Positions 8,180-37,483 of a DNA stretch of 64,000 nucleotides are shown piece by piece. How positions within the stretch are numbered: position 1 is the first letter of the stretch; every line of letters starts with the position of its first letter. Both the position numbers and the translations under genes were made by a program. The notes below the pieces were generated by a model, which saw only the letters and a list, made by a program, of their open reading frames with translations, had not been told where the DNA came from and searched no databases. Origin of the DNA: Octopus vulgaris (taxonomy: Eukaryota); NCBI GenBank assembly GCA_951406725.2, contig OX597816.1:166470001-166534000 (forward strand). Direction: 5' to 3'.

Positions 8180-8184
<5 letters not shown>

Positions 8185-8460
8185 TGCAGCGTGGAAGGTG
8201 TTTGTAAGCCATTTAAGAAACACACAAAAGCCGTTCGATTCACTTCAACATTTAAGTTTAATTTGTCAAAATCTTTTCGTCGCTAAAATCCGCGACCTGT
8301 TCACTGACAAAAATCCGTGCTGCAGCTTAAATGTTGAAGTGAATCGAACGGCTTTTGTGTGTTTCTTAAATGGCTTACAAACACCTTCCACGCTGCAATT
8401 GTTTTCGTCTCAGCACACGATCTCAAATCAAATTACTTGCTATGCGAGTACATCTCTGTA
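8180..8460. mobile_element. Foldback element (77-bp perfect inverted arms plus tail), Penelope-like derivative
   Basis: Arms 8180-8256 and 8326-8402, hammerhead in the loop, ~58-bp unpaired tail, (TA)n on both sides. Confidence 0.75.
8262..8311 (-). ncRNA. Minimal type I hammerhead, G3-C8 swapped variant
   Basis: Minus strand: UUUGUCA-GUGAACA-G-GUCGC(GGAUUUUA)GCGAC-GAA-AAGAUU-U-UGACAAA. 7-bp stem I, 5-bp stem II. Confidence 0.68.
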
Positions 8461-13370: not shown

Positions 13371-14392
13371 TGTCTAACCATCCAACCCACACTAGCATGG
13401 AAGTAGACATTAAATTTTGAAACCATGGCTGCCAAAGTCAATATAGCACCATCTTGCTGCTGGCTGACTTCTTGCAGTTGTACTTAATCCATCTAACAGA
13501 TAATCAATGGTGTGTGTTAACTATCCATAATTAAATCACTTCCCAATCACATGGTTTTAGGTTCAATCCTCACTTCTACATCTTGGGCAAGTGTCTTTTA
13601 CTGTAGCCGCTAGCTGACTAAAGACTTGTGTGTGAATTTAGTTGACGGAAACTAAACGAAGCCCATCGGTATATGTCATCATCATCGTTTTAGCATCCAC
13701 TTTTCCATGCTTGCATGGGTCAGACGATTGTTGAGACAGATTTTCTGTAGCCGGATGCTTTCCCTGTCACCAACCCTCACCTGTCCCGAGCAAAGTAATA
13801 CTTTTCCATGCCCAGACACGTTTACACAAAAGATTGGAAATGAACGACTTATTTATAACAGTCATATCAAGACAAGGACACACATACACATGCATGTGTG
13901 TCCGTTTATGTTCAAATTATACAGTCGCAAGCTATAAGTGGTGGGAGTTCATTATCATCATTTAACGTCCGTTACCCACGCTGGCATGGTTTGGACGGTT
14001 TTAAGTGAACCTGGCAAGTCAGAGGACTTTGCCAAGCTCTAGTGTTTGTTTTGGTATGGTTTCTAAAACTGGATACCCTTCGTGTGTGTCAACAAGGGCA
14101 TGCCTAGAAAGTCAGAAAACAGCACAGCTCCCTTGACTTTCGGAAACAGTTTTTCACACTGGAACAAACTGCCTGCATCAGTTGTTAGTTGCCGAGACAT
14201 TGCATCCTTTAAAACCTCCATGCTTCCTGAAATTCGCCAACACTGCACCTGATATCCCTCCCTCTTCCATACACATGCACACATGTATATCATGACTCTT
14301 ACACTGTTCACTTTCCTGACTTTTGTACATAATTCTATATACTGTACATGCACCTTTTTTGAGTTGTAGTGCACCTCAACACTGTACACAGT

Positions 14393-14633
14393 AATTTCAT
14401 TATCATTATTTACATTCGACGGATATTTGTCCTCATCTTGTTTGTTGTTAACACAACGTTTCGGCTGATATACCCTCCAGCCTTCTTCAGGTGTCTTGGG
14501 GAAATTTCGAACCTGGGTATATCAGCCGAAACGTTGTGTTAACAAACAAGATTAGGACAAATATCCGTCGAATGTAAATAATGTACATAATTCCTCATCT
14601 CTTAAATATAGAACTGAATTTCATTATCATTAT
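14393..14633. mobile_element. Penelope-like non-autonomous insertion with inverted arms and 17-bp TSD
   Basis: AATTTCATTATCATTAT at 14393-14409 and 14617-14633; inverted repeat spanning 14404-14583; inserted in the tail of a CR1 fragment. Confidence 0.8.
14450..14495 (-). ncRNA. Minimal type I hammerhead ribozyme (Penelope type)
   Basis: Minus strand: GACAC-CUGAAGA-A-GGCUG(GAGGGUAUAU)CAGCC-GAA-ACGU-U-GUGUU. Confidence 0.78.
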
Positions 14634-15869
14634 AAATCCTTTATTCGCTTCGTTCCTGTGACAAGTGAGAGATTCTTTTCTTGAAAAACAGTTAAGGGAT
14701 GGTACCAGAAAGGGCATCTGGTTGCAAATAATGTAACTTGTCTAATTTTCCATTTTAGTATGGAATAACGAACGAACAACAACAAAACGAAGAGCCATCT
14801 AGTTGGTGAATTGCTAGATTTGTTAGAACTTAGGATAGAATAGCATGGAATATTTGTTTCAATTCTCTGCACTTTGAGCTCAGATCCTACCGCGGTTAAT
14901 TTTTGCCTTTTATCCTTTTGATATCAATAAATAGATATTCATCCCGGGTAGGGCTGGGGGATGGAGGAAACATTAACTAAACCAGACACGATTGAAATGA
15001 AAATGAATTAAAACACGGAGTTATTTCCCTTTAAATGACAAAAATACGCGAAGATTGATTGTTGCCTTTCTTCCTTTTGGAGCCTTTATCGTAGACACAT
15101 CAAACAAAATGCTTAGCGGCATTTCTTCTGGCTCTTTGCGTTTTGATTTCAAATCCTGCCAAAGTCAACTTTGCCTTTCATCCTTTCAGGGTCGATAAAA
15201 TAAAGTGCAAGTGAAGTACTGAGGCAGATATAATCGATTGTTCCAGCCACACGAAATTGCTGGCCTTGTGCCAAAATGTGACCCAATAGCAGTTTGTGTG
15301 TGTGTGTAGCGTGGAGATTGCTATGTGAATATAAAGGTTCTGAGGTCACCACCACCTTAACGTTGTCTGTTGGTTATTAGTTCGACAAAAGTTGTTTTCA
15401 CGTCGGGTTGACTCCATGGTTGTTGGCTGATGTCGGCGATGGTAGTTGTTGATAGCAGTTAATGGCAGACAGATGTCGCCGTCTGTGTTCGTGTGTTCGA
15501 CGTCTGTTAGATAGCAGTGATAGACAACAACTCAACTTTAAGATTATAAAGTTTTATTGTAGCGATAGGTTTCATCCATGACTTTAGGGAACAGTTTTTC
15601 ACTCTAAGAGTTGCTGAAGCATGGAACAAACTGCCGGCATCAGTTGTTAGTTGTCAGAGCACTGCATCCTTCAAAACTTCCATGCTTCCTGAGATTCGCC
15701 AACACTACACCTGATTTTCTCCCCTCCATACATACGCAAACATGTATCTGACTCATACACTGTTCGCTTTCCAGACATTTATACATTACTGCATATGCTT
15801 TATACGCACTTTCGACAAGTTGTGGTGCACCAGAGCATTGTATACAATAATTTCATTATTATTATTATT

Positions 15870-21368: not shown

Positions 21369-21581
21369 GTAAGTCAAAGAAACATTTATTAATTTCGATG
21401 TTTTAAACTGTAAAAGTCAAGTGGCTACATGGAATAAGTTGTTAGACTGCTATTATATCAGTCAAGGGTTCAAATTACTGGCAAATATTTCATTGTGCTT
21501 TTAAACAAACTTTTAATTAAAGTATTAAATTTGTGATAATAAATCTCTGAACAAGGTATAAACAGTAACTGCATGACAGTG

Positions 21582-21983
21582 TGAAGTATATTTGCCATCT
21601 AAATGTGCCTAACCACTAAGGGTGGATGTTACTGTAGCTTGTAGCCCCAGGAGAACATCTTCTCCAGCTGGCTATTGACACACTTTCTGTGCCCTATCGG
21701 TATTTGCAAAGGGAAGTCATCCTTCCTATCATCGACCTGACATGATACGCACGGACCCAGGTTTCTGGATATTTACCCATCATCAGCGCACGACAATCAC
21801 CGGTCTTCAATGCGAAGGGGTCCCAATGCAAATACATATATCCTTTTTCTAGTGACTTTTCGTCATACTGATAGGGCACAGAAAGCGTGTCAATAGCCAG
21901 CTGGAGATGTTCTCCTGGGGCTACAAGCTACAGTAACATCCACCCTTAATGGGTAGCCACATTTAGATGGCAAATATACTTCA
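21582..21983. mobile_element. Foldback element with ~120-bp inverted arms and central hammerhead
   Basis: TGAAGTATATTTGCCATCTAAATGTG... paired with ...CACATTTAGATGGCAAATATACTTCA. A single-arm relative lies at ~1658-1808. Confidence 0.85.
21748..21792 (-). ncRNA. Type I hammerhead ribozyme in the loop of a 402-bp foldback element
   Basis: Minus strand: CGUGCG-CUGAUGA-UGGG(UAAAUA)UCCA-GAA-ACCUGGGU-C-CGUGCG. Stem I has 6 bp with two G-U pairs; U10.1-A11.1; GUC triplet. Confidence 0.75.
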
Positions 21984-22145
21984 TATTAAATTTGTAATTT
22001 AAGCAGAACTAGAGAAAGCTAAATCATGGATAATCCTTTTGTGACCAACTTGCCAGAGACTACTTTTGATTTTTGGGTACAAGCTTCTTATTTTAACCCT
22101 TTAGCGTTCTGATTATTCTACCAAATCTAATACTTATTTATTCAC

Positions 22146-25700: not shown

Positions 25701-28677
25701 TTTTTTGTTTTTTTATATATGTTTGTGTGTCTGTGTTTGTCCCCCCCCCCACCATCGATTGACAACCGATGTTGGTGTGTTTATATCCCCTGTAACTTTG
25801 CAGTTCAGCAAAAGAGTCCGATAGAGTAAGTACTAGGCTTACAAAGAATAAGTACTGGGGTCGATTTGCTCGACTAAAGGCGGTGCTCCAGCATGGCCGC
25901 AGTCAAATGACTGAAACAAGTAAGAGATAAAATGTATAGACACACACACACACACAATTGGGTTCTTTCAGTTTCTGCTTACTAAATCCATGCACATGGC
26001 TTTGATTGGCTTGGGACTATAATAAAAGGCACTTACCAAAGATTCCACACAGTAGAACTGAACCAAGGACCATGTGGTTAGGAAAGCAAACTTCTCAACC
26101 ACACAGCCACTCCTGTCACCCTACAACTTATATAATTGTAGGTTTGGTCCCATTGCATGATACATTGGTTAATTCACTGTTTAAATGTTACCTTAGTTAC
26201 AGTAACATGAGTTGCAGTCTCAAACCAAAAAAGGAACCACTATGCAATCGCTCAAACAGCTAGAAATAGCAGTCAAATAACTCTGAAATTACGCCTTGAA
26301 AGGACAAATTATATAATGTATAGTCTGAGATACTCCTGAAGAAAAAGTTGAAATGGTCATTGCTGGAACGTCTTTTGTTATAGGGCTGCTCAATCAGTTC
26401 TAACCTGGGGCTAAACAACAACCTGTATTGTCTTTTGATTTGATTTTTTAATTAAGAATGTTATTCAGAACCTAATTCATTCTCTAATATCTGAAAATTT
26501 GTCATGCTGTCTTTAAATGTTTGTTAATATTTCGTTGTCATCATCATCATCATCATCATTAGTAATCGTCATCAATGGTTTATGATTTTTTCGTACATTT
26601 AATGGGTTTGGTGAATGTGGTGGGGGTGGGGATTTTGCATTGGTTACACAATCAAGACTAATCATAAAGACATGGGAGACAACTCCGAAATTTCATTTAT
26701 TCCAGAGTTACTTCCCTTGCCTCAGAATTACTCATTAAACTAATGGTGTTTTTTTTCTATCCTTCTCAAGATGCAAATTTAAATTTCATTACTGACTACA
26801 TTAACTAGATTAGAACTCACTTTACTACTTATTTTCCATGCAGAAGGTATCCATGGGTATTCCGCCCCCACCCCGCAGTCATTTCTCCGTTTGTTTATGT
26901 TTTTTTTTAACATCTACTTTTCCCTGATAGCATGGGTTAGATATATTGTTGTGGCATTGTTTGCAGCTGGACGCCCTTCCTATCGCTAACCCTTACCTGT
27001 TTCTCAAGTTAGGAGTTTCTTATTCCACACATCTTCAAAAGTGCAAAGCCTAGAAGTGGTTTGTTGACAGGGGAAATGTCAACAACGTCACCACTTGTAG
27101 CTCAGCAATTTCAAAGGAATGTAAACGTAAACCAGTGATGCTCAATTATTAGGGGCCAGTTATTTTGCCCATGCACCCCTCCGATTCCTATTCTACTCAG
27201 GGGTATCCCCATAGCCATCCAATGTTTAGAAAATCCTATTATATTTTTAGAATTAAATATTAGAATTGAATATAGAAAATTAAAATGTTATAACCAATTT
27301 ATTGTGCATAGATTTTAACAACATAATCTTATAATTGACTCTCAAGGGTCTTGTGGACCCCACTTGAGAATCCCTGATGTAAACAGTCAAACAATAGGCA
27401 CATACACACATACATATATACATGCATGTATGATGTACATACACACACATGATGGGCTTCTTTCAGTTTCCATCTGCCAGATCCACTCATAAGACTTTGT
27501 TAGGCCCATTGCTATAGTAGAAGACACCAGCCCGAAGTTCCACAGAGTGGGACTGAACCCAGTACCTTGTGGCTGGGATGCAAACTTCTTACAATGCAGC
27601 TATGTCGGCACCTAGTGTAGTAATAAATTAAATTATATGTCCTTAGCTCCAAGAAACTTTTAAGGGCCAATTGTTGTTGTTTTGTCACAAGGCGCAGAAG
27701 TGTGACCAACCACATGGTTCTGGGTTCAGTCCCACTTTGTGGCACCTTGGGCAAGTGTCTTCTACTATAGCCTCGGGCCAACCAAAGCCTTGTGAGTGGA
27801 TTTGGTAGACGGAAACTGAAAGAAGCCCGTCGTATATATGTATGTGTGTGTATATTTTTGTGTGTCTGTGTTTGTCCCCCCAACATTGCGTGACAACCAA
27901 TGCTGGTGTGTTTACGTCCCCGTAACTTAGTGGTTCGGCAAAACAGACCAATAGAATAAGTACTAGGCTTACAAAGAATAAGTCCTGGGGTCGATTTGCT
28001 CGACTAAAGGTGGTGCTCCAGCATGGCCGCAGTCAAATGACTGAAACAAGTAAAAGAGTTAAAAAGAGAGAGTCAGCCCTGATCCTCACAAACAGTGGTA
28101 ATTTTGAGCCTTCACACATGTTGCTAGTCTCTAACTCATGATCACCATGACCTCTGACCCTTGCATAGCATGGTTAAGATTCCAAATTTGTTGATGTATT
28201 TGACTGATTTATTGATTTTTTTACTTTTAACCTTCAAAGGTCACTGTGTCAATTGTTTTGGCCATTATCTCTATTTCTAATTGACATCTAATCCATTAGA
28301 ATTGTTTTTCTCTTTCCGTCTCATTTCATCCCTCTCAGTTGTTCATTCACTGTCTGAGTATCATTTAATATAAAACTTCCTAAAACTTCTGTGGCAAGGC
28401 ATAAGTGTGGCTGTGTGGTAAGGAGCTTGTTCCCAATCACATGTTCTGGGTTTGGACCCTCTGCTTGTCACCATAGAGAGTGTCTTCTACTCTAACCTCA
28501 AGCCTACCGAAGGCTCATGGGTGGATTTAGTAGACAGAAACTGAAGGAAGCTTGTCGTGTATGTGTGTGTGTGTGCACACACGCATGCTATCACTGCTTG
28601 ACAACTGGTATTGGTGTGTTTATGTCACTGTAACTTAGCAGTTCATCAAAAGAGACTGCTAGAATAAGAACCAGGCT

Positions 28678-37049: not shown

Positions 37050-37483
37050 TAATATTTAGCAGAAGCAACAGAGTGACCTAAGAACTGAGAGCTTTACACA
37101 TTAACACTTATCAAACTAGATACAGATTGAGAGCTTATGAAATTATGTACCAGTGATAATAGCATTTCGCTGGATAGTTCTGGAACAAATTATAAAAGCA
37201 ATTAGAATATCAGGTGGATAATTCATATTTCAAATAGTATGCCAATTACGCTGTTCAGTAACTAAATACATAAATAAATATTTACTTATTGAGCAGCATT
37301 TGAAATATGAATTATCCACCTGACATTCTAATTGTTTTTATGATTTGTTCCAGAACTATCCTAGGAAATACTATTACCACTGGTATATAACTTCACAAAC
37401 CCTCAATCTGTGTCTAATTTGATAAATGCTGATGCATAAACCTCTCAGTTCTTGAGTCATTCTGTTGCTTCTGCTAAATATTA
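37050..37483. repeat. Long imperfect palindrome (~185-bp arms)
   Basis: TAATATTTAGCAGAAGCAACAGA... paired with ...TCTGTTGCTTCTGCTAAATATTA; begins ~10 bp after a (TA)n tract. Confidence 0.9.

What the first reader, a model, noticed from the sequence alone, without database searches (positions are those of the whole stretch)
14393..14633. Complete recent insertion: 17-bp TSD, inverted duplication and hammerhead
Seen: direct repeat AATTTCATTATCATTAT on both sides; inverted arms 14404-14474 and ~14516-14583; a full ribozyme on minus and only its 3' half on plus; a ~33-bp tail. A long TSD with a truncated inverted copy fits endonuclease-primed retrotransposition of Penelope type rather than a DNA-transposon MITE. 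This is the best mechanistic evidence in the window.
Basis: partly seen in the sequence, partly recalled or inferred. Interest (0 to 1): 0.75.

Follow-up and report, generated by a model that had tools for sequence, protein, structure and literature searches.

The report
Back-to-back Penelope retrotransposon end pair
This is an ordinary leftover of a very common Penelope-type jumping gene: two copies of its end repeat joined back to back between duplicated target letters, one end carrying a 33-base tail, a published pattern that likely arises when both cut DNA strands start copying the element's RNA at two different fixed points.

Summary
The anatomy is real: identical 17-nt direct repeats, inverted arms, a complete minimal hammerhead on minus, its 3' half on plus, a 33-nt one-sided tail. 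It is a head-to-head pair of solo pLTR ends of a Penelope/Poseidon-type element with thousands of copies here; longer copies carry an RT plus GIY-YIG ORF between the same arms. Not a MITE: spans vary from 109 to 3,792 bp and the exact junction occurs twice. Two corrections. The TSD is probably 12-13 bp (family mode); 6 of the 17 nt also continue the element's own end. 'Recent' is not supported: contigs of related organisms, 5.5-7% diverged in the flank, appear to carry the right junction, and no empty allele was seen. Inverted pLTR, one-sided tail, TSD and minimal hammerhead are all published. What the family adds: 95 of 102 inverted pairs have exactly one tail, on either the longer or the shorter arm, favouring coupled priming from both nicked strands; a weak excess of 5' ends sits at the predicted ribozyme cut. 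This scan has already noted the one-tail rule in several other genomes and probably this family here. New member of a known kind; low interest.

The parts
14393..14409 (.). Left direct repeat; also the 3' simple-repeat tail of the host repeat. Last 6 nt equally belong to the tail-less arm, so the true duplication is 11-17 bp, most likely 12-13
14404..14520 (-). Tail-less pLTR arm, 3' end pointing left; longer arm of this insertion
14450..14495 (-). Complete minimal type-I hammerhead motif; predicted cut between 14455 and 14454; cleavage untested
   Evidence: sequence; anatomy as in PMC4209133
14515..14520 (.). Head-to-head junction with 5-6 nt that fit both arms (microhomology)
   Evidence: same junction at a few other loci with different flanks
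14515..14583 (+). 5'-truncated pLTR arm, 3' half of the hammerhead only; begins upstream of the predicted cut, so its template would have been uncleaved RNA
14584..14616 (+). 33-nt one-sided tail; in full-length copies it runs on into the ORF
14617..14633 (.). Right direct repeat
14097..14409 (+). Host target: 3' end of an older dispersed repeat, LINE-like (CR1/L2 label recalled from its C-terminal peptide motif, not tested); three uninterrupted paralogues in the window

Best explanation
This is a single insertion of two solo end repeats (pLTRs) of a Penelope/Poseidon-type retrotransposon, joined head to head between duplicated target letters, likely made when the element's enzyme nicked both DNA strands about 12-13 bp apart and each nick primed its own cDNA. 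Shown: family, ORF, anatomy, TSD range, one-tail rule. Inferred: the bottom-strand nick started at the outer site (tail end), the top-strand nick at the inner site about 33 nt upstream, possibly helped by pairing of the target's CATTAT with the RNA; both cDNAs stopped early and their ends were joined through 5-6 nt of microhomology; repair duplicated the stagger. The copy is non-coding and has no promoter head, so it is most likely inert.
For: L091 is a 2.5-kb insertion with the same two arms, one tail, and a 569-aa open frame that is 40% identical over 575 columns to P0069, whose residues 505-562 pass the Pfam GIY-YIG cut-off and align with the C-terminus of L091; RVT_1 hits in L056 and L040. 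3,054 exact copies of the 31-nt tail. Tail continues into the ORF in 3 of 30 loci picked by the ORF 5' part; 27 of 38 extra-letter offsets at the tail end match that continuation. Exactly one tail in 41 of 46 and 54 of 56 inverted pairs sampled by arm-internal words, p 4e-21 against independent choice at 0.5. Either arm may be longer: tail-less 62, tailed 50, equal 19 of 131 clean junctions among 143. TSD length 12-13 in 33 of 58 (of 91 examined) and 23 of 38 (of 54). Both arms usually share subfamily letters (57 of 62; 71 of 79). In vitro, the anole PLE protein cuts and extends both strands from two start sites that bound the tail (PMC11167929).
Against: No intermediate is observed; end products only. 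PMC11167929 saw no strand difference in start site and did not link the two strands of one molecule. About half of the arms have no inverted partner in the range fetched (44 of 90; 35 of 90), so two-armed insertion is only one outcome. 33 of 91 and 16 of 54 one-tail pairs gave no TSD above the cut-off. Many junctions have gaps or filler rather than microhomology (overlap table). The family's own EN segment did not hit GIY-YIG in Pfam, NCBIfam or PHROGs; the call rests on the homologue and the motif.
Confidence: 0.72

Rival explanations
1. Self-priming or fold-back: one PLE template (antisense RNA or first cDNA) folds back, makes an inverted copy, and the endonuclease resolves the intermediate so that one tail is lost.
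For: Proposed in PMC3846280 (discussion) and, for the tail, PMC8557442 (passages). Arms share subfamily letters. Palindromes sit at many junctions. The two two-tailed pairs (L266, L277) repeat flank letters in inverted form, as fold-back predicts.
Against: In this copy and in 62 of 131 the tail is on the shorter arm, which a copy of a tail-less longer strand cannot supply. Outer ends vary by 0-4 templated letters, as expected of start sites. 5 of 62 pairs differ at a non-CpG subfamily site against about 1.5 expected (p 0.02), a weak hint of two templates.
Confidence: 0.2
2. A palindromic mini-element that spreads as a unit (MITE or fixed non-autonomous PLE derivative).
For: Terminal inverted repeats and a TSD; the same junction recurs at L003, L004, L010 and, less cleanly, L015.
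Against: Exact 26-nt junction only twice in 2.8 Gb; spans 109-3,792 bp, median 483; TSD 9-16 bp; ends asymmetric; arms are the end of an RT-encoding element.
Confidence: 0.04
3. Two independent insertions, or later recombination between neighbouring inverted copies, at one spot.
For: Arms differ by one substitution and one indel; AT-rich tails attract insertions.
Against: One direct repeat frames both arms; the one-tail rule and subfamily agreement between arms are not expected; the substitution looks like ordinary mutation (11 T, 24 A, 3 C among 38 variants).
Confidence: 0.03

Closest known systems
Pen2a_Av / Pen2_Av Penelope insertions of Adineta vaga (PMC3846280; passages and discussion read)
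   Same: Inverted head-to-head pLTR, 31-bp tail on one end, pLTR and tail encode the ORF N-terminus, TSD, palindromes and microhomology at junctions.
   Different: TSD 8-10 bp there, mostly 12-13 here; this copy has no ORF; copy number here is thousands.
Poseidon_Ac (PAc) of the green anole (PMC11167929; parts 1-2 of 4 read)
   Same: C-terminal GIY-YIG, hammerhead in the pLTR overlapping the ORF start, tail bounded by two RT start sites, AT-rich targets (TSDs here 75% A+T).
   Different: No coupling of start sites between strands reported there; no RNA ends at the ribozyme cut found there, whereas a weak excess of genomic 5' ends falls there in this family.
Minimal hammerheads of metazoan PLEs (PMC4209133; parts 1-2 of 4 read)
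   Same: Short helix I, extra base before G10.1, palindromic 15.2-16.2, no stable helix III, pairs on opposite strands 100-700 bp apart.
   Different: None of substance; cleavage of this motif is untested.
L1 twin priming (recalled, not read here)
   Same: Both nicked strands prime; inversion with long TSD.
   Different: L1 arms copy different parts of one RNA; here both arms copy the same 70 nt and start at fixed sites.

Membership tests
EN+ Penelope-like element | Single ORF with RT and GIY-YIG endonuclease | tested here: met
   Met in long family copies (L091, L040), GIY-YIG through an aligned homologue; this 207-bp copy has no ORF.
EN+ Penelope-like element | pLTRs in direct or inverted arrangement with variable 5' truncation | tested here: met
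EN+ Penelope-like element | Optional 30-40 bp tail that continues into the ORF | tested here: met
   33 nt; continuity in L160, L173, L182.
EN+ Penelope-like element | Minimal hammerhead motif in the pLTR | tested here: met
   Motif anatomy; N7 is the only non-CpG site under 85% majority. No Rfam hit.
EN+ Penelope-like element | Ribozyme self-cleavage | not testable with these tools
   Only an indirect, weak excess of 5' ends near the cut.
Penelope/Poseidon clade | EN C-terminal to RT, DKG motif, no zinc finger in the RT-EN linker | tested here: met
   Read from the L091 translation; criteria from PMC8557442 passages.
Penelope/Poseidon clade | RT phylogeny groups with named members | not tested
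   No tree built; homologues carried no PLE names.
MITE (DNA transposon) | Fixed short TSD, fixed TIRs and length, symmetric ends | tested here: not met
Non-LTR retrozyme | Tandem non-coding monomers separate from a coding element | tested here: not met
   Arms are inverted, single, and part of the coding element's pLTR.

The most novel reading that the evidence does not exclude
The family records a strictly coupled two-strand reaction: one PLE complex nicks both strands 12-13 bp apart and starts one cDNA at the outer and one at the inner site, on short RNAs that begin at a tRNA-like head or, in a minority, at the hammerhead cut. That would explain inverted pLTRs and the tail together and give genomic evidence that a minimal PLE hammerhead cleaves in vivo.
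Probability: 0.4. Interest if true: 0.55.

Novelty: new member of a known kind. Interest (0 to 1): 0.25.

Why it matters
The single insertion matters little. The PLE transposition cycle is still described as unresolved (PMC8557442, PMC11167929), and a family with thousands of readable ends turns a qualitative remark ('tail often at one end') into a number that constrains models. In four searches touching this I saw no paper that counts the rule, but I read only passages or parts of the papers named, saw no supplements, and older subscription papers are outside the library. The scan has reported the same rule repeatedly, so this is a further replicate.

Tried and rejected
Empty allele: none shown in 8 runs laid; X21 gave only 2 reads, joint tables were cut, and only the right junction was informative. 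Rfam: no hit at gathering score, only hairpin-type chance hits by E-value. Fold z-scores uninformative. ARAGORN called no tRNA in 7 loci. Single-sequence structure model of the EN part failed (pLDDT 36); the Atlas look-up gave no answer; PDB search gave weak RT hits only. Arm-length results (tailed arm longer 85 vs 39) were discarded because a reference held an inverted piece; one search is the clean run. My guess that the plus arm's T variant marks a second template was rejected. My expectation that the tail-less arm is usually longer was not borne out (62 vs 50, p 0.3). The 5'-end excess at the ribozyme cut was 0 of 6 in the tail-selected remainder. Enrichment of microhomology at the inner start site was not tested against a proper null. 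Searches were script errors, rerun.

Full report
Observation. The minus-strand motif at 14495-14450 has every feature listed for minimal PLE hammerheads in PMC4209133; the plus copy keeps only the 3' half. Rfam does not model it. The 3' ends of both arms point outwards, so the pair is head to head.

Family. The window lies in a 2.8-Gb genome; earlier scan notes call it a cephalopod, which I did not test. The 31-nt tail occurs 3,054 times exactly, arm words 1,465, 890 and 2,663 times. Long copies carry coding sequence upstream of the same arm. L091 has a 569-aa frame with the DKG motif, RT and a C-terminal VYSIP-C-G-Y-GET segment, flanked by inverted arms with one tail and an 11-of-12 direct repeat. 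It aligns at 40% over 575 columns with P0069, whose matching segment passes the Pfam GIY-YIG cut-off. The family's own EN segment did not score in three libraries. In L160, L173 and L182 (3 of 30 loci) the tail runs on into the ORF, and the arm itself reads in frame (L038), as described for Adineta Pen2a (PMC3846280).

Target and TSD. The insertion sits in the simple-repeat 3' tail of an older repeat. Three paralogues in the window show one uninterrupted copy of a near-identical 17-mer, a stand-in for the empty site. Six letters of the left repeat also continue the element's tail-less end, so the duplication is 11-17 bp. Among one-tail pairs, 58 of 91 (two false pairs, one two-tailed locus and three duplicates dropped first) and 38 of 54 (at least two loci shared with the first set) had a TSD above cut-off; 33 and 23 of them were 12-13 bp. 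L283 repeats this case: an exact 17-mer whose end overlaps the element end. So 12-13 bp is the likely stagger.

Age. Within its family the copy is young-looking: 1.9% from the majority letters, tenth of 82 arms, all five CpGs intact as in 6 of 78. But contigs of two other samples of the same label align through 22-25 tail letters into the flank, and both haplotypes of X1 begin with three tail letters. Contigs from four further runs (labels A, B, D, E) align from the first base given, 19 tail letters, across the TSD into flank that differs by 27 of 490 or 24 of 340 letters; an empty allele would mismatch at 11 of those 19 positions (compared by hand). This is below the tool's 31-letter bridging rule and tests one junction, so it is strong suggestion, not proof. 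An identical 17-mer pair survives 2-3% divergence per copy with probability 0.36-0.50, so it does not show recency.

Not a MITE. The exact junction occurs twice; spans of 143 one-tail insertions run from 109 to 3,792 bp.

Mechanism. Sampling by arm-internal words, 41 of 46 and 54 of 56 inverted pairs have exactly one tail; 5 scored none (one is a decayed tail) and 2 have two; the first set probably includes one false pair, L208. Independent choice would give about half. Both two-tailed pairs also repeat flank letters in inverted form, so they look like a different, fold-back event. The tail is on the shorter arm in 62 of 131 clean cases, the longer in 50, which simple fold-back of a tailed strand cannot give. 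Arms of one insertion agree at subfamily sites but share only 10 of 345 rare variants: same source, later decay; one or two RNA molecules cannot be told apart. With the in vitro result that a PLE protein extends both strands from two sites bounding the tail (PMC11167929), coupled two-nick priming is the best reading. Endonuclease trimming of a two-tailed intermediate remains open. About half of the arms have no inverted partner in range.

5' ends. 39 of 138 arms start in the first six letters of a tRNA-like head upstream of the (AAT)n linker (the ruler began at the head, so slightly longer arms are counted there too), suggesting short templates that begin there. Of 32 starts inside the core, 12 fall at positions 58-66 around the predicted cut (4.0 expected, p 3e-4). 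Four are joins through a palindrome in the element and three starts at 57-63 are head-to-core deletions; removing these after the fact leaves 7 of 25 (p 0.03). Suggestive only. The window's plus arm starts upstream of the cut.

Comparison and verdict. Inverted 5'-truncated pLTR, one-sided 30-40 bp tail, TSD and minimal hammerhead are in print (PMC8557442 passages; PMC3846280; PMC4209133). A 2026 preprint on retrozymes and PLEs (10.64898/2026.07.22.740005, two passages) and PMC13282606 (passages) added nothing on insertion ends. No supplements were read; those of PMC11167929 may bear on strand-specific start sites. I had the one-tail count before looking at earlier scan notes, which report it in several other genomes. 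New member of a known kind; interest 0.25.

Noticed in passing
window 21523-21996: A second head-to-head insertion of another family: 12-bp direct repeat (21523-21534, 21985-21996), 96% arms, about 47-nt extension on the left only, CTGATGA...GAAAC motif on minus near 21786-21754.
   Followed up: no
window 8180-8460: Perfect 77-nt inverted arms with a one-sided extension, inside a TA microsatellite; looks younger than the given element.
   Followed up: no
L023:1640-1735, L030:1398-1480, L091:4886-4960: The full pLTR begins with a tRNA-like head and an (AAT)n/(AAC)n linker; many arms start exactly there, often beside a short fold-back of the head. ARAGORN calls no tRNA.
   Followed up: partly
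L266, L277: The only two-tailed pairs repeat 10 or more flank letters beyond the tail in inverted form.
   Followed up: partly
L084/L086 and L288/L290: Pairs of loci about 1 Mb apart with the same flanks, apparently segmental duplicates.
   Followed up: no
window 14634-15087: Run X17, labelled organism A, shows the same flank differences as organisms B and D, and one X1 haplotype shares five differences with B, D and E: mixed labels or retained ancestral variation.
   Followed up: no
window 37050-37483 and 27437-27845: Longer, more decayed inverted repeats (186 and 140 nt arms), type not examined.
   Followed up: no
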